Source of the DNA: Escherichia coli
GTDB lineage: Bacteria; Pseudomonadota; Gammaproteobacteria; Enterobacterales; Enterobacteriaceae
DNA: 64,000 nt
Strand: one strand, 5' to 3'
Assembly: GCF_003018255.1 (NCBI RefSeq)
Contig: NZ_CP027440.1
The notes below the pieces were generated by a model. It saw only the letters and a list, made by a program, of their open reading frames with translations. It searched no databases and was not told where the DNA came from. The translations under genes and the position numbers were made by a program. This document shows positions 31,375 to 56,649 of the stretch, in pieces; position 1 is the stretch's first letter; the number at the start of each line of letters is the position of its first letter.

Positions 31375-32394
31375 TCAGAAGTCGGCTTTCAGAACCACGC
31401 GGTAGCGCGCTTTACCATCGCGTACATGCTGGATAGCGTCGTTAATTTTCGACATCGGGAACAGTTCGGTAGTCGGCGCAACCTTGCTGCGGGCGGCAAA
31501 GCGCATCAGCTTACGCAGCTCATAAGGCGTGCCGGTAGCAGAACCAGAGACGCTGCGGTCGCCCGCAATTAACGTAAAGGCCGGAACAGACAGCGGCGTG
31601 AGAACCGCACCGACCGTATGGAAATTACCGCCATACGTCAGCGCCTCAAAATAAGGCTGCCAGTCGAGGCTGACGTTGACGGTGTTGATAATGAGATCAA
31701 ACTGCCCCGCCAGTGCTTTGAGTGCCTGCGGATCGCGGCTATTCACCACTTTATCGGCACCCATCGCCAGTACTTCCTGCTCTTTCGCCGGATTAGAACT
31801 AAAGGCTGTCACCTCGCATCCCATTGCGTGCAGAAGTTTTATAGCGATATGCCCCAGCCCGCCAATACCAATCACGCCGACGCGGCTGGTGGCAGTGATA
31901 TGGTGCATCAACAGTGGTTTAAAGACCGTGATACCGCCGCACAACAGCGGCCCAGCAGATTCAATGTCGATATTTTCTGGCAGTGGGATTACCCATTGCC
32001 AGTCCGCACGCAACTTCTCGGCAAAACCGCCGCGATTCAAAATCGTCGGCACCGCACCTTGCTCGCAGTTGATCTGATTACCGCTAATACAGGCGTCGCA
32101 GTGACCACAGCTACGCGCCGTCCAGCCAATCCCGACACGCTGACCGACCTGCAAACCTTTATCCTGCGCGGCGCTACCCAATGCAACCACGCGCCCAATC
32201 ACCTCATGCCCGGCAACCAGCGGATACTGTGAAAATCCCCATTCGTTGTCGATCATCGACAGATCGGAATGGCAGATCCCGCAGTAATCCACCTGAACTT
32301 CAACATCTTGTGGCTTCAGTTCACCGGGATCGTACTCATAAACTTCCAGTTCGCCGCCAGCCTCTTTTGCGGCATAACTTTTTATCATCGACAT
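31375..32394 (-). CDS. ahr: NADPH-dependent aldehyde reductase Ahr (YjgB), Zn-dependent ADH family
   Basis: Trimmed to [18 protein letters not shown] start (339 aa); GHEVIG and GIGGLG motifs. Confidence 0.9.
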
Positions 32395-32589
32395 GTTTTT
32401 ATCCTTCTCTGGTGTGGTCTGGGAAGTGTAGAGCATGGCAGGGCGGGGCGCCTGGAGTGTGACAAAGGTTACACATCGCGGTATGCAATGCTGAAAATTT
32501 CAGCACTTAGCGAGGTGCGAGCAAGCTGGCGCTTGCATGGTGGCGTGCGACAGGTATAATCCACAACGTTTTCCGCATACCTCTTCAGT

Positions 32590-32674
32590 GCCGAAGTGGC
32601 GAAATCGGTAGACGCAGTTGATTCAAAATCAACCGTAGAAATACGTGCCGGTTCGAGTCCGGCCTTCGGCACCA
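32590..32674 (+). tRNA. leuX: tRNA-Leu (anticodon CAA)
   Basis: 85-nt sequence GCCGAAGTGGCGAAATCGGTAGACGCAGTTGATTCAAAATCAACC...GGTTCGAGTCCGGCCTTCGGCACCA with cloverleaf arms and encoded CCA. Confidence 0.95.
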
Positions 32675-32896
32675 AGTGATGCAATAATTAGCTACCTAAG
32701 GGTGGCTTTTTTTGTGTCCATTTCCGTCCAAATTCGTCCATATCCGTTTGTAATTCAAAGGTAATTTATTTTTCCACAATAACCATATTTATTTTGTGGT
32801 CTTTCCGTGTTGGTCATTTTTCATCCATTGACATCCACGCGATTTGGGGGCCAAATTGGGGGCTTAGACGTAGTTCGATAATAGTGAGGCCCCCAA

Positions 32897-34573
32897 ATGG
32901 CACTAACAGATCGCGCTATAGTCCACGCCAAGCCTTGTGGCAAGCCGTATAAGCTCAGTGACTCGCATGGACTTTACCTGCTGGTTAACCCTAACGGTTC
33001 AAAACGCTGGTACATCAAGTACCGCTTTGTAAACAAAGAGAAAAAGCTCGCTTTAGGCCCTTATCCGCTTTTGACGCTTGCACAGGCAAGACGCATGCGT
33101 GAAGAGGCACAATTATTGCTGATTTCCGGCATCGATCCGAGTGCACGCCGAAAAGCAGAACGCCTTGCGATAACGCCGGAACATACGTTTGAGTCTGTGG
33201 CACGTGAATGGGTCACCAGTAACGTGAACTGGTCGGCGGAACATAAGAAGCGGGTGCTGCGTTATTTCGAGCTTTACGTATTCCCCACGAACGGCAGCTG
33301 TGACATCACCAAAATGAAGGTCAAAGATCTGCTGGTGCCCATCAAGGAAGTGGAGAAAGCGGGCAAACTGGATGTTGCTTCCCGGCTTCAGCAGCGCACT
33401 GCCTGCGTGATGCGCTACGCCGTCCAGAACGGCATTATCGATCATAACCCTGCATCAGATTTAACCGGCGCGGTCTCCACGCCCAAAGTACGGCATCACC
33501 CGGCGTTGGATCTGAATCTTATCCCTGATTTCCTGGAAAGAATCGACGATTACAAAGGCCGTCAACTGACTCAACTGGCGGTAAAACTGGCACTGCTGCT
33601 GTTTATCCGCTCCAGCGAACTGCGCTTTGCCCGCTGGGATGAAATTGATCTGCGTAACGCCATGTGGACCATCCCCGCTGAGCGTGAGCCGATCCCCGGC
33701 GTTAAATATTCAGCGCGTGGGGCGAAGATGCACTCCCCACACCTGGTCCCATTGTCACGTCAGGCCATCGAACTGCTGCACGAGGTGCGGCAGCATTGCC
33801 GACCGGGAACTGAACTGGTGTTCCCCGGCGATCACAATTACCGCAAGCCGATGAGTGAAAACACCATCAACAAAGCGCTGCGGGTGATGGGCTACGACAC
33901 CCAGAAAGATGTCTGTGGCCACGGTTTTCGCACTATGGCCTGTAGCGCGCTGGTGGAGTCGGGGCTGTGGTCAAGCGACGCGGTAGAGCGCCAGATGAGC
34001 CATCAGGAGCGCAAGCGCGTGCGTGCGGCGTATATCCACAAGGCGCAGCATCTCGAAGAACGTTGGGAGATGATGCAGTGGTGGGCGGATTATCTGGATG
34101 CAAACCGGTTCAGGCATGTTGTGCCGTATGGCTTCAAAAAGTCGCCGGGAGGCGCACTCGACCATATGAGTTTCCAGGAGCGCAATGACCGGCAGCTAGA
34201 GGAGCTGAAAGCCAGAATACTGGCTGACTCGGAATGGCTGACGGCGTCTGAATTATCCGCAAAAGCGGGCTTTCGTTCCGCCGATCCTGATGCTGGTCCG
34301 AAAGGCTGGAAAGCCGCCGGGAAGATATTCTCGCTGAAGGTCGATGGTGAGGATTTATACCCTGATTATGTTCTGGATGAGAAAATGCGGCCTCTCAAGG
34401 TTGTCCGTTTGATTCTTTCACTGTTTAAGGAGCGTAAAACACCGTGGGGGCTGGCTATCTGGTTTGGCTCGGCTAATCGCAGGTTGAGAGGTGGGAGGCC
34501 GAAAGACCTGCTGATTTCGAAGTCAGAGTTGGTTCTGATGGCGGCGCAGGAGGAGGTGGAGTCGGGGGAGTAG
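32897..34573 (+). CDS. P4-type tyrosine integrase with ~150-aa C-terminal extension
   Basis: 558 aa; N-terminal arm-binding region, catalytic HGFR and Tyr (AAYIH) region at ~aa 350-375; extension ends in a GGRPKDLL-type motif. Confidence 0.85.
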   Translation: MALTDRAIVHAKPCGKPYKLSDSHGLYLLVNPNGSKRWYIKYRFVNKEKKLALGPYPLLTLAQARRMREEAQLLLISGIDPSARRKAERLAITPEHTFESVAREWVTSNVNWSAEHKKRVLRYFELYVFPTNGSCDITKMKVKDLLVPIKEVEKAGKLDVASRLQQRTACVMRYAVQNGIIDHNPASDLTGAVSTPKVRHHPALDLNLIPDFLERIDDYKGRQLTQLAVKLALLLFIRSSELRFARWDEIDLRNAMWTIPAEREPIPGVKYSARGAKMHSPHLVPLSRQAIELLHEVRQHCRPGTELVFPGDHNYRKPMSENTINKALRVMGYDTQKDVCGHGFRTMACSALVESGLWSSDAVERQMSHQERKRVRAAYIHKAQHLEERWEMMQWWADYLDANRFRHVVPYGFKKSPGGALDHMSFQERNDRQLEELKARILADSEWLTASELSAKAGFRSADPDAGPKGWKAAGKIFSLKVDGEDLYPDYVLDEKMRPLKVVRLILSLFKERKTPWGLAIWFGSANRRLRGGRPKDLLISKSELVLMAAQEEVESGE

Positions 34574-34756: not shown

Positions 34757-35770
34757 ATGAGGTGTGAACAAATGAAGGAAGAACAGCTTTTGTCTGATGC
34801 GATAGAGAATCTGCCAAAAGGATTCCATTTGCAGTATGAACATAGCGGTAGACATGGTAAGCACGATGCCTGGGGTAAGCTAACAGGGCCGGATGGTGAG
34901 TCAGTGATATTTGCTCTGGAAGTAAAATTTATCCACCGTAAAGAGTCACTGATGGCTGTTCGCGAACAAATGGTTCGCTTTCCTGCGGATTTTCCTGTGC
35001 TGCTGGTGTGTAACCGCCTGACGTCTGCACTGGCGGAATATTGCGCCGACAGCCAGATCAACTTTATCGATACGGCAGGGAATGCCCGTATCCAGGTTCC
35101 AGGCTTGTATGTGCGGATCGAAGGCCGCTATGAAAAGAAACCCGTTTCCGCCAGCAGTCGTTTTGCTGAAGGGGTGATGAAGCTTCTTTTTGTTTTGCTG
35201 TCTAGCCCAGAGACCCTGAACGAGACTTACCGCAGTCTGGCCGGAAAGGCAGGTATCTCTCTGGGAATGGTCAGCAAGGCTTTTGATTATCTCGAAGCGC
35301 AACGCTATTTCCGCAAATCGAAGAAGGGGCGTCGCTTAATCAATGAAGGCGAGTTAGAGGCTTTGTGGCTGAAAGATTATGCTACAGCTTTGCGCCCTAA
35401 GCTGGATTCGCTTTCTTTATCCGCGCCTGTTTCATGGGATGAGTTGACGCTTGCGTCCGGGGAATACTGGAGCGGCGAGATTGCGGCGGCAAAGCTGAGC
35501 GGAGGATACCTGATACCAGAAAATGGCGTGATTTTTACATCCCATCCGTTGTTACAAAGGCGAAAGGAACTGGGACTAAAACCTGTTCCGGGGGGGAAAC
35601 TACAGCTGATCGCCGGTTTTTGGGGGAACTTTGTACTGAATCACAAAGCCGAGGCGATGCTATGCGTGGCTGAACTGCTGGCAAGCGGGGATGACAGAAA
35701 CTGGGAAACAGCAAGGATAATCAATGACAAATATCTTCACCTTAATGAATCCGATCTCTTCAGCTACTGA
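34757..35770 (+). CDS. Hypothetical protein with N-terminal PD-(D/E)xK-like motif and central winged-HTH
   Basis: 337 aa; GPDGESVIFALEVKF (PD...ExK pattern) and ISLGMVSKAFDYLEAQRYF HTH-like segment; alternative ATG at 34772. Confidence 0.6.
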   Translation: MRCEQMKEEQLLSDAIENLPKGFHLQYEHSGRHGKHDAWGKLTGPDGESVIFALEVKFIHRKESLMAVREQMVRFPADFPVLLVCNRLTSALAEYCADSQINFIDTAGNARIQVPGLYVRIEGRYEKKPVSASSRFAEGVMKLLFVLLSSPETLNETYRSLAGKAGISLGMVSKAFDYLEAQRYFRKSKKGRRLINEGELEALWLKDYATALRPKLDSLSLSAPVSWDELTLASGEYWSGEIAAAKLSGGYLIPENGVIFTSHPLLQRRKELGLKPVPGGKLQLIAGFWGNFVLNHKAEAMLCVAELLASGDDRNWETARIINDKYLHLNESDLFSY

Positions 35771-36533
35771 AACGTTACTGAGTCAGATCAACCGTATTTG
35801 CACCGCTCAGGGGATCCCGTTTTTTATTGCAGGTGCAACGGCTCGTGAAATTCTGCTCCATCATATACACAGCAGAAGTATTGGTCGCCGAACCCGTGAT
35901 ATTGATATTGCCGTCTTTGTGGATAGCTGGCCGAGATTTGATGCGCTTAAAAATGCTTTCCTTGCTGAAGGGGCAGAAGTTGTCCAAGGTAATGCCCATC
36001 GTATGATTGTCAAAGGGATCGAGCTAGATATTATTCCTTTTGGTGGTGTTGCTGAAGGAAATCAAATTGCCTGGCCACCAGAACGTGAGATCATAATGGC
36101 TGTGGATGGATTTGCCGAAGTCTTTTCTCATACCGTAGTTGTGCGGCTGGATAACAGCGAAAATATTCCGTTCTGCTCCTTGCCAGGACTGGCTCTGTTA
36201 AAACTTTTTGCATGGCGTGATCGTGGGCATGGGAGTACTAAAGACGCGACCGATCTCTTTAAGATTATCTGTGAATATGGTGTTATCGAGAATGAACGCA
36301 TCTATGAATCGCCCGTCGAAGGGGAACGCCTGAACTGGGATCCCATACGTATGGGCGCTTTTCTGTTGGGAAGCGATATAGCGACAATTAGTGAACACTC
36401 ATCCTTGCAGGATTTACTCCATCTTGATAAAGAACGCCTGATCGATGTGATAGTACGACAACATGACGTGGGTGATGCTGGGATTGAGCAGATCATCAAT
36501 GATTTCTGGGATGGTATGGCAAGTGATGGTTGA
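35724..36533 (+). CDS. Pol-beta-superfamily nucleotidyltransferase (AbiEii/DUF1814-like motif pattern)
   Basis: 269 aa; AGATA...GRRTRDIDIAVFV then DIIPFGG acidic motif; overlaps upstream gene by up to 47 nt. Confidence 0.6.
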   Translation: MTNIFTLMNPISSATETLLSQINRICTAQGIPFFIAGATAREILLHHIHSRSIGRRTRDIDIAVFVDSWPRFDALKNAFLAEGAEVVQGNAHRMIVKGIELDIIPFGGVAEGNQIAWPPEREIIMAVDGFAEVFSHTVVVRLDNSENIPFCSLPGLALLKLFAWRDRGHGSTKDATDLFKIICEYGVIENERIYESPVEGERLNWDPIRMGAFLLGSDIATISEHSSLQDLLHLDKERLIDVIVRQHDVGDAGIEQIINDFWDGMASDG

Positions 36534-53255: not shown

Positions 53256-54203
53256 ATGAGAAAAATTCTTTTCTTCCTGCTGTTGATGATAGCCGTCCTG
53301 CCGGAGGTTCAGGCCACCTGTTCGTTCTACGGTGGTGTGACATCAGAAGTATCGGGTTACCTGAATTTCGGCAACGTGGTTATCCAGCGGGATGCACAGG
53401 TCGGCAGCACGATTGCCACTGCCATTACAGGGGCATACAACAATGGCGACGGCATTGCCGGGTGTAAGCGGGAGGCCTGGACCGCCCGCTGGGAACTGAC
53501 GCAATGGGGGACGCTGAGTGGCTATGGGAATGGTGTCTACAACACCAACCTGCCAGGGGTAGGATTACGTCTGAGTGCGGCCTCGACAGGTAAAACATTG
53601 CCCTATGAAACCAGCTACGCCTACAACGCTGGCGGCACCTGGGTATCCATTCCCGGTGATGGCATCAAGGGCGAGCTTATCAAAACCGGGGATATCACCA
53701 GCGGTACATTAACGGACGGTGTGCTGGCGCGCGCTTCGGTAGTGAATCAGTTTTATTTTGCCAACGTCACGTTGAACGGGATGAACACAGTGAAATCAGA
53801 AGCTTGTACTGTGACCACGCCCTCTGTTGATGTCCCGATGGGGGATCACGATAAAAGCGAATTCAGTGGTGCGGGATCTTCAACCGACTGGGTGAGCTTT
53901 GATATTGGTTTGAGCTGCGATGTCGGGGCGAGAATAAACGTACGTATCGATGCCACTGCGGATGCTTCCGCCGGTTCGCAAGGCGTCATGCTGATTGATA
54001 GCGGCGGGGCGTCTGGCGTGGGGATACAACTTCATTACCGCCCGGATGATGCCGCTGTCCAGTACGGTCAGGAACGGTTTTACTGGCAGTCGGTATATGG
54101 TGACGAGATCGTGCAGCTTAAGGCGCGATATTACCAGACTGCAGGCTCGATCACGCCAGGTGCGGCAAACGGTACGGCGACGTTTACGATGAGTTATAAA
54201 TAG
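53256..54203 (+). CDS. Fimbrial adhesin-like two-domain subunit (paralogue 2)
   Basis: 315 aa; C-terminal half aligns with paralogue 1 (…QLKARYYQTA…ATFT.SYK), N-terminal half diverged. Confidence 0.7.
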   Translation: MRKILFFLLLMIAVLPEVQATCSFYGGVTSEVSGYLNFGNVVIQRDAQVGSTIATAITGAYNNGDGIAGCKREAWTARWELTQWGTLSGYGNGVYNTNLPGVGLRLSAASTGKTLPYETSYAYNAGGTWVSIPGDGIKGELIKTGDITSGTLTDGVLARASVVNQFYFANVTLNGMNTVKSEACTVTTPSVDVPMGDHDKSEFSGAGSSTDWVSFDIGLSCDVGARINVRIDATADASAGSQGVMLIDSGGASGVGIQLHYRPDDAAVQYGQERFYWQSVYGDEIVQLKARYYQTAGSITPGAANGTATFTMSYK

Positions 54204-54214
54204 CGCGTAATCAT

Positions 54215-55762
54215 ATGGAATATTCTATGTCGGATATTGTCGCCGGGAACAGGATTGCTGCTCAATATTTAAGAATGTCTACCGAGCATCAGAAATATTC
54301 GCCGGAGAACCAGCGGGAATATATCGAGAAGTATGCAAAAGAACACTGTATTACCATTAAATATACCTATGACGACGCTGGCCGAAGTGGGCTGAGCCTG
54401 GATAACAGGCCTGGCCTGCGTTCGCTGTTATATGATGTTGAAAACGGAATAATAAAAGTCTCGTTAATTCTTGTTTACGATGTCAGTCGGTTTGGTCGTT
54501 TTCAGGATATTGAAGAGGCTGCTCATTACTCGTGGCTACTGAAGCGTAATGGTGTGCGCATTATTTATTGCGCGGAGCCTTTCTCGGAAGAACAGACCGA
54601 ATTGTTTATGCTGGGATTATCTTACTCCCGCTATGGCGCCGCAACTTACAGTAAAAACCTTTCACAAAAAGTTTTTCTTGGCCAGGCAAACCTCGTTCGG
54701 CGGGGTTATTATCAAGGTGGTATGCCTGGCTATGGCATTCGGAGATTATTAATTGATGAACATACTAATCCGAAAGGCATGCTTCTGCCGGGGCAAAGGA
54801 AAAGCCTGCAAACTGACAGAGTAATATTGATCCCGGGGCCCGCGGAAGAGGTGGTAATAGTCAATAAAATCTATGACATGTTTATTGATGAGGGCAAGCC
54901 TGAGTTTGTTATTGCTTCAGAACTGAACCGGAAGAACATCCCCGCCGAGAATGGGCTCCAGTGGAGCCGATGTAAAATTCATCAGATACTGACCAATGAA
55001 AAATATATTGGCAATAATGTTTATAACAGAACCTCCGGACGATTGAAGACCCGAAGTGTCAGGAATCCTCAGGATCAGTGGATCAGATGTGACGGCGCGT
55101 GGGACCCTGTGGTATCAGTAGAGAAATTTGAGGCGGCTAAAAGGATTATTGAAGCCAGGGCCGTTCAGTACAGTGATGATGAACTGCTGGATAAACTACG
55201 CCATCTGCTGAAGCTTCGTGGCAGATTATCCGGGATTGTGATTGATGAAGAGGAACTGTTTCCATCGAGCAGCATTTTTCGTTCACGGTTTGGTGGGTTA
55301 GTCAGGGCTTACACCCTTATTGGTTATCACCCGCGCCATGATTACTCTTATCTTGAAATAAAAAAGCAGATTGCAGAATGCCATCTCACTTTCATGGATA
55401 ATTTGGTGCAGGATATATACCGATATGGCGGTTGGGCAGAGATGCATCAGGATGGTTCATTATATATTAATGATGAGTTTTTTGTTTCCGCTAATCTGGT
55501 TCGCTGCCAACGTTTGTCGTCAGGTAAGCTTCGTTGGAAGATAAAATTTAATGTATCCCATTATTGTGATGTCATGATCTTTCCACGGTTGGATAGCACA
55601 AATAACTCCGTGGTTGATTACTTTATGTTTCCGGCTATTGATGTGTTGTATAACGATTTAACGCTTCATGAGAACAATGGTTTTATCCTCGAACTATATC
55701 GATTTGATGATTTGTCATGTCTGGAAAATCTTGTAAAACGAACTGGTCTGGAGAGTAAATAA
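54215..55762 (+). CDS. Large serine recombinase
   Basis: 515 aa; N-terminal resolvase catalytic motif YLRMSTEHQ; starts 11 nt after adhesin stop. Confidence 0.8.
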   Translation: MEYSMSDIVAGNRIAAQYLRMSTEHQKYSPENQREYIEKYAKEHCITIKYTYDDAGRSGLSLDNRPGLRSLLYDVENGIIKVSLILVYDVSRFGRFQDIEEAAHYSWLLKRNGVRIIYCAEPFSEEQTELFMLGLSYSRYGAATYSKNLSQKVFLGQANLVRRGYYQGGMPGYGIRRLLIDEHTNPKGMLLPGQRKSLQTDRVILIPGPAEEVVIVNKIYDMFIDEGKPEFVIASELNRKNIPAENGLQWSRCKIHQILTNEKYIGNNVYNRTSGRLKTRSVRNPQDQWIRCDGAWDPVVSVEKFEAAKRIIEARAVQYSDDELLDKLRHLLKLRGRLSGIVIDEEELFPSSSIFRSRFGGLVRAYTLIGYHPRHDYSYLEIKKQIAECHLTFMDNLVQDIYRYGGWAEMHQDGSLYINDEFFVSANLVRCQRLSSGKLRWKIKFNVSHYCDVMIFPRLDSTNNSVVDYFMFPAIDVLYNDLTLHENNGFILELYRFDDLSCLENLVKRTGLESK

Positions 55763-56649
55763 TGAAATCTTTTGATGAACAGATAGAACTTGTCGATATC
55801 AGTGATATTTATATCGCAAATCCACGGAAAAGGAATAAATTCATTCATAATGAAATAAAAGAGAACATAAAAACCATTGGTCTGAAACGGCCTGTTAGCG
55901 TGCGCCCAGTGAATAATGAAAACTATAAATATGCCCTGATTTGTGGTCAGGGACGACTTGAAGCGTATATTGAGTATGGTGAAACGAAAATTCCTGCAAT
56001 CATCAAGCAGGTTGATGAAGAGACAGCGCACCTGATGAGCCTGGCTGAAAACATCGCAAGACGTAATCCCCGGGCGGCAGAGCTAATGGAAGATATCAGA
56101 AGAATGAAGACCAGTGGCCTGACCGATCGTGAAATAGGCTTGCGGCTTGGGTATAATTCGAGTTGGGTAAATGGGGTGATCACTCTGTTGTCATCCGGAG
56201 AGAAGCATCTTTTGCGGGCATTTGAGACTGGCGATATTCCCTTGTATCTTGCTGTGGAAATATCCCGGTCAGGAGATGAGGAAACTCAGGAACTGCTGAC
56301 GGTCGCCCTGAAAGAAGGACATATCAAGGGTGGGCAAATTAATAAGATCAGGCGCATACTTGAACAACGTAAGAAAGGCGATAAAGGTACGATTAGTACG
56401 GCTTTTTTTCCTGGGAAAAAACAGAAAAAACTGACCCCGGAAGAACTGGCTAATGTCTACCAGGAAAACATTAATGAGCAAAAAGCCATTCTGCTGAAAT
56501 CCACAATGGTTAAAGAGAAAATTCTGGCAGTAAAGCAAATATTTGGTTATTTACTTAAAGATAATGATTTTGTTACATTGCTGCACAGTAATAATATCCA
56601 CGATATTCCTTCTTTACTGGATGGCAGTGATGTATCGGGGGAGAAATAA
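55762..56649 (+). CDS. ParB-like protein (ParB/Srx N-domain plus HTH)
   Basis: PVSVRPV...ICGQGRLEA...IPAIIK...ENIARRN pattern resembles ParB boxes; TAATG overlap with recombinase. Confidence 0.7.
   Translation: MKSFDEQIELVDISDIYIANPRKRNKFIHNEIKENIKTIGLKRPVSVRPVNNENYKYALICGQGRLEAYIEYGETKIPAIIKQVDEETAHLMSLAENIARRNPRAAELMEDIRRMKTSGLTDREIGLRLGYNSSWVNGVITLLSSGEKHLLRAFETGDIPLYLAVEISRSGDEETQELLTVALKEGHIKGGQINKIRRILEQRKKGDKGTISTAFFPGKKQKKLTPEELANVYQENINEQKAILLKSTMVKEKILAVKQIFGYLLKDNDFVTLLHSNNIHDIPSLLDGSDVSGEK

What the first reader, a model, noticed from the sequence alone, without database searches (positions are those of the whole stretch)
32675..32896. Repeat-rich att/arm region between leuX and the integrase
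Directly 3' of the tRNA are three tandem 10-bp units (TCCATTTCCG, TCCAAATTCG, TCCATATCCG), likely integrase arm-type sites. There is also an inverted repeat ATTTGGGGGCC...GGCCCCCAAAT (about 32846-32896) overlapping the integrase ribosome-binding region. These define the left junction of the island.
Basis: seen in the sequence. Interest (0 to 1): 0.25.

Follow-up and report, generated by a model that had tools for sequence, protein, structure and literature searches.

The report
P4-type attachment-site arm beside leuX
The DNA between the leuX tRNA gene and the integrase gene is the attachment-site arm of a roughly 60-kb conjugative island, built like the attachment site of satellite phage P4, so it is a real but ordinary, already understood kind of feature.

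Summary
The region is the attL junction (P' arm) of a PFGI-1/PAPI-type conjugative element integrated in leuX.

The "inverted repeat" is a set of three TTGGGGGC sites. Two are direct copies 12 bp apart (32844, 32856). One is inverted and abuts the int ATG (32889-32896). Phage P4's GenBank record annotates the same motif in the same layout as "attP arm sequence repeat". Among 43 P4-family integrase loci, 35 show this layout, with a motif that differs between clades. A further copy lies about 58 bp before the distal leuX-end repeat.

The three 10-bp GTCCA units (32716-32746) follow an element-borne leuX terminator. Together with an ATCCA pair at 32823-32837, they correspond to two helically phased boxes in P4's P' arm. 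They occur on one arm only. They are more likely binding sites for the element's Vis/AlpA-type excisionase than integrase arm sites. This assignment is inferred, not shown.

This is a new member of a known kind, of low interest.

The parts
32590..32674 (+). leuX, tRNA-Leu(CAA). Its 3' end is the att core.
   Evidence: ARAGORN and Rfam tRNA at 59.4 bits. Similarity to other E. coli genomes ends at 32674-32677.
32654..32674 (+). Core sequence CGAGTCCGGCCTTCGGCACCA, repeated at the distal end of the element (attR).
   Evidence: There is a 15-nt exact match plus GCACCA at L002 12283-12310 in JNE23-011. The same core, lacking one G, is present in strains S10, KW21 and DS26-1. P4's annotated 20-bp attP core covers the same tRNA segment.
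32690..32714 (+). Element-borne rho-independent terminator for leuX: stem AGCTACC/GGTGGCT, loop TAAG, then T7.
   Evidence: Terminator scan. Folding gives -10.6 kcal/mol, z -2.8. The T-run is invariant and the stem is kept through wobble changes in 15 relatives. Other clades carry analogous hairpins at the same place.
32716..32746 (+). Three tandem 10-bp units GTCCATTTCC / GTCCAAATTC / GTCCATATCC(G). This is the core-proximal phased box, a probable binding array for the Vis/AlpA-type excisionase (inferred).
   Evidence: (1/3000 shuffles). GTCC of units 1-2 is at least 90% conserved. Unit 3 is degenerate, and one unit is precisely deleted in Franconibacter. The P4 counterpart is ATCCGAGAAAGTCCA.
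32749..32768 (+). Conserved A/T-rich block TGTAATTCAAAGGTAATTTA, function unknown.
   Evidence: AAAGATAATTT is nearly invariant in alignment A2. It has no IHF consensus match with one mismatch or fewer.
32811..32838 (+). Most conserved block of the spacer, TGGTCATTTTTCATCCATTGACATCCAC. It holds two ATCCA units 10 bp apart (32823, 32833) and a perfect -35-like TTGACA (32828-32833). This is the arm-site-proximal box and probable int promoter -35.
   Evidence: Invariant in 15 relatives. Detected as RTCCR-N5-RTCCR. It is homologous to P4's GTCCGTTGAAATCCG, which contains the -35 TTGAAA annotated in X05947.
32842..32853 (+). Arm-type integrase site P'1 (ATTTGGGGGCCA, core TTGGGGGC 32844-32851).
   Evidence: Same motif and position as the P4 'attP arm sequence repeat'. 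Conserved in A2.
32852..32857 (+). -10-like hexamer CAAATT, 18 nt after TTGACA, lying between P'1 and P'2 (inferred by position only).
   Evidence: It is positionally homologous to P4's annotated -10 CATAAT between its two direct arm repeats, with the same 18-nt spacer. The generic promoter scan did not call it.
32854..32865 (+). Arm-type integrase site P'2 (AATTGGGGGCTT, core 32856-32863), 12 bp after P'1.
   Evidence: The 12-bp period is invariant in 35 relatives.
32873..32882 (+). Conserved box GTTCGATAAT between P'2 and P'3, function unknown.
   Evidence: GTTCGATA is invariant in A2. It is present in clades that have different arm motifs.
32886..32889 (+). Probable Shine-Dalgarno sequence GAGG of int.
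   Evidence: Read from the sequence. It lies inside the predicted P'1:P'3 RNA hairpin.
32888..32901 (-). Arm-type integrase site P'3, inverted (GGCCCCCAAATGGC, core 32889-32896), overlapping the RBS and ATG of int.
   Evidence: P4 has an inverted arm repeat annotated across its int start codon.
32897..34573 (+). int, a P4-family tyrosine integrase of 558 aa with a roughly 140-aa C-terminal extension.
   Evidence: Pfam Arm-DNA-bind_3, Phage_int_M and Phage_integrase. It is 58% identical to P4 Int. Full-length homologs of 80-99% identity occur across Enterobacterales.

Best explanation
Window 32654-32901 is the attL junction (tRNA core plus P' arm) of a roughly 60-kb PFGI-1/PAPI-type integrative conjugative element. 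The element uses a phage-P4-type integration module to sit in the 3' end of leuX.

Reading 5' to 3', the arm contains the following parts:
1. The core, which is the last roughly 21 nt of leuX.
2. A terminator supplied by the element, which replaces the tRNA's own terminator.
3. A core-proximal array of three helically phased GTCCA units.
4. A highly conserved block with two more phased ATCCA units around a TTGACA -35 element.
5. Three arm-type sites TTGGGGGC. Two are direct copies 12 bp apart and bracket the -10 position. One is inverted and lies over the ribosome-binding site and ATG of int.

Shown here: the sequence features, their non-randomness, their homology to P4's annotated arm repeats, the conservation of the layout across the family, a further arm-type copy on the distal (P) arm, and the distal core repeat.

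Inferred: the N-terminal arm-binding domain of Int binds the TTGGGGGC sites on both arms to assemble the recombination complex. Because these sites cover the int promoter and start codon, binding would also repress int, as reported for P4 and KplE1. The phased GTCCA/ATCCA boxes are probably bound by the element's Vis/AlpA-family excisionase, one monomer per helical turn, to bend the arm for excision. In transcripts reading through from leuX, P'1 can pair with P'3 and hide the int start.
For: Integrase and insertion site:
- The integrase carries Arm-DNA-bind_3, Phage_int_M and Phage_integrase domains. It is 58% identical to P4 Int, and P4 also inserts in leuX.

Match to P4:
- P4's GenBank record X51522 annotates 12-bp 'attP arm sequence repeats': two direct copies in the P arm, two direct copies just before int, and one inverted copy across the int start.
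- The P4 sequence is TTGGGGGCATAATTGGGGGCAT...GCCCCCAAatg. This is the same motif, spacing and orientation as window 32844-32896.

Distribution of the motif:
- All three TTGGGGGC copies in the 64-kb window lie within this 53-bp stretch.
- The only copy in the 49.9-kb distal locus lies 58 bp upstream of the distal core repeat. It is conserved there in four genomes.

Family-wide layout:
- In 35 of 43 relatives (Int identity 36-99%; tRNA-Leu, Phe, Asn, Arg, Met, Thr and tmRNA), a motif X occurs twice exactly 12 bp apart and once inverted near the int start. Only 161 of 2150 shuffles show this.
- X differs between clades, for example GTTGGTA, GYGGGTA, TAGGGGT and TGACAGT.

Literature on arm sites and autoregulation:
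- For the P4-family IntS of ICEMlSymR7A, five arm-type motifs TGKTGGTATC are all required for integration (PMC11963761). That is the same X as in the Proteus and tRNA-Phe clades.
- P4 Int represses its own promoter, according to PMC7286903. It does so by binding DNA near the transcription start, at positions like the KplE1 IntS arm sites that overlap the -10, according to PMC2951348. Both papers cite Piazzolla 2006 for this.

Phased boxes:
- RTCCR-N5-RTCCR occurs three times in the window, all in this spacer and on the + strand. It is absent from the distal 50 kb.
- It occurs twice in the whole P4 genome, both times between the core and int.
- In the 3-5.6-kb loci of ICE-lineage, P4 and Photorhabdus relatives, strict matches occur only between the core and int.
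- RDF sites are typically direct repeats one helix turn apart (PMC7498355). RdfS binds about 40 bp just upstream of an arm site, one protein per 10 bp (PMC11963761). P4 Vis binds P4 attP by EMSA and footprinting (PMC2603039, citing Cali 2004).
- The element encodes an AlpA-family protein 43% identical to P4 Vis.

RNA hairpin:
- The predicted hairpin has -29.7 kcal/mol, z -3.9. Read-through from a tRNA promoter, attenuated by 5'-UTR stem-loops, is documented for ICEKp1, ICEclc and ICEEc1 (PMC13023037).
Against: - No binding, excision or transcription data exist for this element.
- P4's 'arm repeat' annotation was originally made from sequence.
- The RDF assignment of the 10-bp units rests on analogy. 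Unit 3 is poorly conserved and one relative lacks a unit. A crude 3-mer phasing test was not significant for the window (43/400) and was mixed across relatives. I could not read Cali 2004 to check where Vis footprints in P4.
- The -10-like hexamer CAAATT is weak, and the promoter scan found no promoter.
- Identity of the arm-binding domain does not group by arm motif.
- The distal end and the alpA gene were seen in a 99.8%-identical genome, not in the window itself.
Confidence: 0.8

Rival explanations
1. The three tandem 10-bp GTCCA units are the integrase arm-type sites, and the GGGGGCC inverted repeat is merely a structure at the RBS.
For: The units are real and non-random. They lie in the arm next to int. 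A single GTCC(C)A also sits immediately 5' of the arm-type copy in both arms: ATGTCCCATTTTGGGGGC in the P arm and CATCCACGCGATTTGGGGGC in the P' arm. An extended composite Int site therefore cannot be excluded.
Against: P4's annotated arm repeats are the GGGGGC type, not the TCC type. Phased RTCCR pairs are absent from the distal (P) arm, whereas arm-type sites are expected on both arms. Unit number and sequence vary among close relatives, while the TTGGGGGC sites are invariant. The family-wide covarying layout concerns the X motif only.
Confidence: 0.12
2. The inverted repeat acts mainly as an RNA element. A stem-loop in the int 5' leader hides the RBS and AUG, or attenuates transcription reading through from leuX. 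The DNA sites are secondary.
For: The hairpin is predicted to be strong: -29.7 kcal/mol, z -3.9, with 0 of 200 shuffles as stable. P4's hairpin is -24.8 kcal/mol, z -4.1. Direct and inverted copies change together across clades, as a stem would. In ICEKp1, stem-loops in the int 5'-UTR attenuate tRNA-int co-transcripts (PMC13023037).
Against: A hairpin explains neither the second direct copy at a fixed 12-bp period nor the copy on the other arm 60 kb away. In P4, the annotated promoter would start transcription within the second direct repeat, which would exclude the 5' half of the stem. The strong element-borne terminator at 32690-32714 should already stop most read-through. The two roles are not mutually exclusive.
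Confidence: 0.25
3. The three 10-bp units have no function. They are a slippage-generated duplication of a single ancestral GTCCA-containing site or of spacer DNA.
For: Copy number varies. Franconibacter lacks exactly one 10-bp unit. The third unit is degenerate in Salmonella, Kosakonia and others. Clades with other arm motifs have only one similar unit, TTTTTTTGTATCTGAAATCC, at this place.
Against: GTCC of units 1 and 2 is at least 90% conserved across Int identities of 77-100%. P4, at 58% Int identity, has phased TCC units at the equivalent place, with 5 phased pairs and 0 of 400 shuffles reaching that number. Strict phased pairs occur nowhere else in these loci.
Confidence: 0.2

Closest known systems
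Satellite phage P4 attP-int region (GenBank X51522 and X05947; Pierson & Kahn 1987 as cited in PMC7286903)
   Same: Both target leuX and use the same core segment. Both have the arm motif TTGGGGGC in the same layout: two direct copies 12 bp apart before int, one inverted copy at the int start, and copies on the far arm. Both have two phased RTCCR boxes between core and int, a -35 inside the second box, and a conserved TTCGAT box. Both carry an Int with an arm-binding domain and a Vis/AlpA-type RDF.
   Different: Int is only 58% identical and here carries a roughly 140-aa C-terminal extension. The element is a roughly 60-kb conjugative element, not an 11.6-kb satellite phage. It supplies a terminator hairpin after the core, which P4 lacks. 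The core-proximal box has three clean tandem units. In this lineage the P arm has one intact arm copy instead of two direct ones. P4's sixth repeat inside int has no exact counterpart; one search found one single-mismatch copy at 34444.
ICEMlSymR7A attP / IntS / RdfS (PMC11963761)
   Same: It is a P4-family integrase next to a tRNA gene, with five arm-type motifs required for integration. The RDF binds about 40 bp immediately upstream of the int-proximal arm sites at one protein per 10 bp. Int represses its own promoter.
   Different: The arm motif differs (TGKTGGTATC), as do the tRNA (Phe) and the RDF family (RdfS wHTH versus AlpA/Vis). RdfS activates intS.
KplE1 attL / PintS (PMC2951348)
   Same: The int promoter is embedded in attL. 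An arm-type site overlaps the -10, and RDF (TorI) sites lie next to the -35. Both Int and the RDF down-regulate int.
   Different: The integrase lineage, motifs and tRNA (argW) all differ. In KplE1 the sites were mapped experimentally.
ICEKp1 / ICEclc / ICEEc1 state-dependent int transcription (PMC13023037)
   Same: int lies just downstream of, and on the same strand as, the target tRNA gene. Structured RNA in the spacer could attenuate tRNA-int read-through.
   Different: In those elements the tRNA terminator is displaced and not replaced. Here the element brings a canonical hairpin plus T7 terminator directly after the core.
PAPI-1/PFGI-1/pKLC102-family ICEs in enterobacteria (ICEEc2, ICEKp2; PMC6761156)
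   Same: The conjugation and maintenance backbone is the same: MobH relaxase, TraD, TIGR037xx ICE proteins, and ParB- and STY45xx-type genes.
   Different: ICEEc2 and ICEKp2 sit in tRNA-Phe, and the Pseudomonas members in tRNA-Lys. This element sits in leuX with a P4-like module.

Membership tests
P4-family tRNA-targeting integrase attachment site (attL / P' arm) | An adjacent heterobivalent tyrosine integrase with an N-terminal arm-DNA-binding domain. | tested here: met
   Pfam Arm-DNA-bind_3 (1.8e-24), Phage_int_M and Phage_integrase. It is 58% identical to P4 Int over 408 aa.
P4-family tRNA-targeting integrase attachment site (attL / P' arm) | The core equals the 3' end of a tRNA gene, the tRNA is left intact, and variable DNA starts at the CCA end. 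| tested here: met
   The tRNA is intact. Similarity to 5,424 genomes ends at 32674-32677, and only 45 genomes continue into this element.
P4-family tRNA-targeting integrase attachment site (attL / P' arm) | A direct repeat of the core at the distal end of the element. | tested here: met
   It is not in the window. It was found about 59.9 kb downstream in JNE23-011, which is 99.8% identical to the window, and in three other strains. It is imperfect, with one G missing.
P4-family tRNA-targeting integrase attachment site (attL / P' arm) | Arm-type repeats on both arms. On the int side there are two direct copies 12 bp apart plus one inverted copy at the int start. | tested here: met
   (35/43 relatives versus 7.5% of shuffles).
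P4-family tRNA-targeting integrase attachment site (attL / P' arm) | Int binds the arm repeats, and the element excises and integrates. | not testable with these tools
   This needs EMSA or footprinting and attP/attB junction PCR.
RDF (Vis/AlpA-type excisionase) operator array, for the 10-bp units | Direct repeats spaced about one helical turn (10-11 bp) apart. | tested here: met
   Three units at exactly 10 bp, plus a second pair at 10 bp. The criterion comes from PMC7498355.
RDF (Vis/AlpA-type excisionase) operator array, for the 10-bp units | A cognate RDF gene is carried by the element. | tested here: met
   A 64-aa Phage_AlpA protein (1.8e-18), 43% identical to P4 Vis, lies in the same element of JNE23-011. 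It is outside the window.
RDF (Vis/AlpA-type excisionase) operator array, for the 10-bp units | The sites are confined to one arm and conserved in relatives that share the RDF type. | tested here: inconclusive
   The one-arm distribution is met. Conservation is partial: units 1-2 are conserved, unit 3 is not, and one relative lacks a unit. The generic phasing test gave mixed results.
RDF (Vis/AlpA-type excisionase) operator array, for the 10-bp units | The protein footprints on the repeats. | not testable with these tools
   Cali 2004, the P4 Vis footprint paper, is not held in the library.
   There are no phased RTCCR pairs in the distal 50 kb. P4's annotated arm repeats are the GGGGGC type.
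Rho-independent terminator (32690-32714) | A G+C-rich hairpin followed by a T-run, conserved in relatives. | tested here: met
Rfam RNA families | A match to any curated covariance model other than tRNA. | tested here: not met
   Only RF00005 tRNA matched at E<=1 in 32300-33200.

The most novel reading that the evidence does not exclude
The two helically phased RTCCR boxes (32716-32746 and 32823-32837) are a conserved operator for Vis/AlpA-family excisionases, shared by satellite phage P4 and a PFGI-1/PAPI-type conjugative element. This would mean that a complete P4 integration-excision module (Int, Vis, both arm architectures and the embedded int promoter) has been transplanted onto a conjugative backbone. 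In addition, the invariant GTTCGAT box between P'2 and P'3, whose extended form GGTTCGA in most relatives equals the tRNA T-loop heptamer (the window itself reads AGTTCGA), would be a decoy core-type half-site that lets Int bridge arm and core domains on its own promoter.
Probability: 0.15. Interest if true: 0.4.

Novelty: new member of a known kind. Interest (0 to 1): 0.2.

Why it matters
The result gives a site-by-site map of the left attachment junction of a leuX conjugative element. That element is present in 45 of 5,426 complete E. coli genomes and has 80-99% identical integrases across Klebsiella, Enterobacter, Citrobacter, Salmonella and Edwardsiella.

The result also shows that the P4 att layout is a usable signature. 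The layout is two direct arm sites 12 bp apart plus one inverted site on the int start, with a clade-specific motif. It can be used to annotate arm sites of tRNA-associated islands automatically.

None of this is conceptually new. Heterobivalent integrases with arm sites overlapping their own promoter are textbook biology, and P4's repeats have been annotated since the 1980s.

Tried and rejected
- Tandem Repeats Finder found nothing in 32500-33000 at minimum score 30, because the array is too short.
- Rfam at E<=1 found only the tRNA.
- The generic sigma-70 scan found no promoter. The promoter proposal therefore rests only on positional homology to P4's annotation.
- No repeat of the leuX 3' end exists inside the window with up to 3 mismatches. 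It had to be sought in a near-identical complete genome.
- The IHF consensus WATCAANNNNTTR has no match with one mismatch or fewer in the spacer or in P4's P' arm. The conserved A/T block and the GTTCGAT box therefore remain unassigned.
- I tested whether identity of the N-terminal arm-binding domain groups by arm motif. It does not: identity to the window's domain is 42-57% in every other clade tested, whatever the arm motif. This is uninformative.
- A generic 3-mer helical-phasing test gave mixed results. It was strong for P4 and Marinicella (0/400), about 1% for five loci, and not significant for the window (43/400) or several others.
- I looked for GTCC-type motifs at P4's PLL/vis leader as an independent Vis operator. 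Several GGAC copies are present but not at 10-bp spacing, so this was not used as evidence.
- The primary P4 papers (Cali 2004, Piazzolla 2006) and the ICEEc2 paper are not held in the library. Their content is cited only through papers that quote them.
- The Int C-terminal extension gave only a sub-threshold Pfam hit (E 0.17) and no PDB relative.

Full report
**Observation**

ARAGORN finds a single tRNA gene in the window, tRNA-Leu(CAA), at 32590-32674 on the + strand. A 558-codon ORF starts at 32897. The finding's coordinates are therefore exactly the leuX-int spacer.

The three 10-bp units are present. In the clearest register they read GTCCATTTCC, GTCCAAATTC and GTCCATATCC(G), at 32716-32746. 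They are not directly 3' of the tRNA. A hairpin (AGCTACC-TAAG-GGTGGCT, 32690-32707) followed by seven T lies in between and scores as an intrinsic terminator.

The triple repeat exceeds chance. Only 1 of 3000 dinucleotide-preserving shuffles of the spacer contains an equally good triple, and only 2 of 575 real tiles of the window do. Tandem Repeats Finder misses it because the array is short.

The inverted repeat is also real: arms 32839-32852 and 32888-32901, 93% complementary. Two copies are direct and 12 bp apart (32844, 32856). One is inverted and abuts the ATG (32889-32896). These are the only three copies in the 64 kb.

**What the island is**

Window 30580-64000 is 99.8% identical to E. 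coli JNE23-011. The annotation of that genome shows a PFGI-1/PAPI/SPI-7-type integrative conjugative element following leuX. It carries a MobH relaxase, TraD, many TIGR037xx ICE proteins, and ParB- and STY45xx-type genes, plus cargo.

Of 5,426 complete E. coli genomes, 5,424 match the leuX part of the query. In nearly all of them similarity stops at window 32674-32677. Only 45 genomes continue into this spacer.

The integrase has the Arm-DNA-bind_3, Phage_int_M and Phage_integrase domains. Full-length homologs of 80-99% identity occur in Klebsiella, Enterobacter, Citrobacter, Salmonella and Edwardsiella.

**The distal repeat**

The window contains none.

In JNE23-011, however, the sequence CGAGTCCGGCCTTCG[ACCTTC]GCACCA lies about 59.9 kb downstream of leuX. 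Strains S10, KW21 and DS26-1 carry related elements and have CGAGTCCGGCCTTCGCACCA at the equivalent place, with one G fewer than the tRNA.

Immediately after this attR comes the P' arm and the decayed integrase gene of a second, different leuX island. The element therefore sits in tandem with an older island.

**The TTGGGGGC repeats are the arm-type sites**

The integrase is 58% identical to that of satellite phage P4, which also integrates in leuX.

P4's GenBank record annotates 12-bp 'attP arm sequence repeats'. Two direct copies lie 54-77 bp before the core. Two direct copies lie just before int. One inverted copy lies across the int start codon.

The P4 sequence reads TTGGGGGCATAATTGGGGGCAT-cttaacTTCGATtagaaatgt-GCCCCCAAatg. 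The window reads TTGGGGGCCAAATTGGGGGC-ttagacgtagTTCGATaatagtgag-GCCCCCAAatg. Motif, spacing, orientation and position are the same.

The single TTGGGGGC in the 49.9-kb distal locus lies 58 bp upstream of the distal core. It is conserved there in four genomes. The motif therefore marks both arms, as arm-type sites should.

**The layout is family-wide**

A scan of one genome per species returned 54 loci with related integrases of 29-99% identity. Most lie 150-230 bp downstream of a tRNA or tmRNA gene.

In 35 of the 43 loci analysed, a 7-mer X occurs twice exactly 12 bp apart and once inverted close to the int start. Only 7.5% of shuffled controls show this.

X differs between clades. Examples are GTTGGTA (Proteus, Providencia and tRNA-Phe islands), GYGGGTA, TGAGTATA, TAGGGGT and TGACAGT. 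The direct and inverted copies always change together.

In ICEMlSymR7A, which has a P4-family integrase, five arm-type motifs TGKTGGTATC are all required for integration (PMC11963761). That is the same X as in the Proteus and tRNA-Phe clades.

**Likely regulation of int**

X05947 annotates P4's int promoter with its -35 (TTGAAA) just upstream of the first direct arm repeat. Its -10 (CATAAT) spans the gap between the two direct repeats.

At the homologous positions the window has a perfect TTGACA (32828-32833) and, 18 nt later, CAAATT (32852-32857). This -10 is weak, and the generic scan did not call a promoter.

P4 Int represses its own promoter (PMC7286903, citing Piazzolla 2006). It is described as binding near the transcription start, at positions like the KplE1 IntS arm sites that overlap the -10 (PMC2951348). 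I therefore infer, but have not shown, that Int bound to P'1, P'2 and P'3 represses int here.

In RNA, P'1 can pair with P'3 (-29.7 kcal/mol, z -3.9) and bury the GAGG Shine-Dalgarno sequence and the AUG. This could silence any transcript reading through from leuX, as described for ICEKp1, ICEclc and ICEEc1 (PMC13023037). Unlike those elements, this one supplies a canonical terminator right after the core.

**The three 10-bp units**

Alignment of 15 loci of this ICE lineage (Int identity 77-100%) gives the following picture:
- The core, the terminator T-run, the block TGGTCRTTTTTCATCCATTGACATCC (32811-32836), P'1, P'2, GTTCGATA and P'3 are essentially invariant.
- GTCC of units 1 and 2 is at least 90% conserved.
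- Unit 3 is degenerate (GTGCA, GTCTA, GTGTG, GTACA).
- Franconibacter lacks exactly one 10-bp unit.

The pattern RTCCR-N5-RTCCR occurs three times in the whole window, all in this spacer on the + strand: 32716, 32726 and 32823. It does not occur in the distal 50 kb.

It occurs twice in the entire P4 genome. Both copies lie between the core and int, one near the core and one abutting the arm repeats. In the 3-5.6-kb loci of ICE-lineage, P4 and Photorhabdus relatives, strict matches likewise occur only between the core and int.

There are thus two helically phased boxes, confined to one arm, and P4 does not annotate them as arm repeats. Recombination directionality factors typically bind direct repeats one helical turn apart (PMC7498355). 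RdfS binds about 40 bp just upstream of the int-proximal arm sites at one protein per 10 bp (PMC11963761). TorI sites flank the -35 of PintS (PMC2951348). P4 Vis binds P4 attP (PMC2603039, citing Cali 2004).

The element encodes a 64-aa AlpA-family protein that is 43% identical to P4 Vis.

I put this at about 0.5. The rivals are an extended Int site, or a slippage product with little function. I recall, but could not verify, that Cali 2004 reported two Vis boxes between int and the core. The paper is not held in the library.

**Comparison and novelty**

In function and in membership this is a P4-type att site. Every sequence-level defining feature I could test was met. Binding and recombination could not be tested.

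The differences from P4 are these:
- The backbone is conjugative.
- The element supplies its own terminator after the core.
- The core-proximal box is a clean triple tandem.
- Only one arm copy remains intact in the P arm. Strain KW21 retains a palindromic TGGGGGCAAACCCCCA there.
- Int has a C-terminal extension.

This is a new member of a known kind, and its interest is low.

**Dead ends**

Rfam found only the tRNA. The IHF consensus has no match. Identity of the arm-binding domain does not group by arm motif. A generic 3-mer phasing test gave mixed results. The P4 PLL leader showed no usable pattern. Sequence searches on the Int C-terminal extension returned nothing significant.

Noticed in passing
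window 34145-34573 (Int residues ~417-558): The integrase has a roughly 140-aa C-terminal extension beyond the usual ~415-aa P4-type enzyme. It is conserved at 80-99% identity across Enterobacterales. PGAP calls the gene a truncated pseudogene in JNE23-011 but intact in strain C11. The only domain hint is a sub-threshold match to the antitoxin Xre/MbcA/ParS toxin-binding domain (E 0.17). A RES-domain gene follows the 559-aa integrase in a K. pneumoniae relative (L069). No relative was found in the PDB.
   Followed up: partly
window 32873-32882; also loci L012-L052 and P4 (L062 879-884): A box (G)TTCGAT(A) lies between the second direct and the inverted arm site. It is conserved in clades whose arm motifs differ completely. 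In most relatives it reads GGTTCGA, the same heptamer as the tRNA T-loop. The window itself has AGTTCGA. Its function is unknown, and it does not match the IHF consensus.
   Followed up: partly
L002 12283-12520 (JNE23-011); L063, L064, L066: The distal core copy lacks one G relative to leuX (CTTCG-CACCA) in four strains, and JNE23-011 has an extra ACCTTC(G) duplication. Directly after it lie the terminator, phased TCAAC repeats, arm repeats (TGAGTATA or GCGGGTA type) and the decayed integrase gene of a second leuX island. The islands are therefore stacked in tandem.
   Followed up: partly
L064 (strain KW21) ~150 bp before the distal core; L002 12218-12236: The distal-arm arm site is part of a palindrome, TGGGGGCAAACCCCCA, in KW21 and S10, giving two head-to-head sites. 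In the JNE23-011/window lineage this has decayed to TTGGGGGCAAATCCTCA.
   Followed up: no
window 34757-36533: An AbiEi antitoxin / AbiEii nucleotidyltransferase toxin pair lies immediately downstream of int (ORFs; annotation).
   Followed up: no
window ~47400-56200 (L001 16864-25182): The element's cargo includes a tyrosine-type DNA invertase next to a chaperone-usher fimbrial operon, followed by a large 'recombinase family protein' and ParB-like genes. This may be a phase-variable fimbrial module carried by the ICE.
   Followed up: no
L002 4932-11821 (outside the window): Between the ICE backbone and attR lie DUF262/DUF3696 genes and a Dcm methyltransferase with a Vsr endonuclease. These are probable defence cargo.
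   Followed up: no
L065 (strain 2013C-4974) and about 50 other E. coli genomes: The same distal P arm plus a core copy lies next to an intact fosA7.5 fosfomycin-resistance gene in many genomes. JNE23-011 keeps only an 84-nt remnant, annotated as a VOC-family pseudogene.
   Followed up: no
L023 (Yersinia thracica) 1517-2001: Two arm-site modules (TGGGGGTCA type) lie in series between leuX and int. The first is followed by a disrupted start region. This suggests a duplicated or nested att arm.
   Followed up: no
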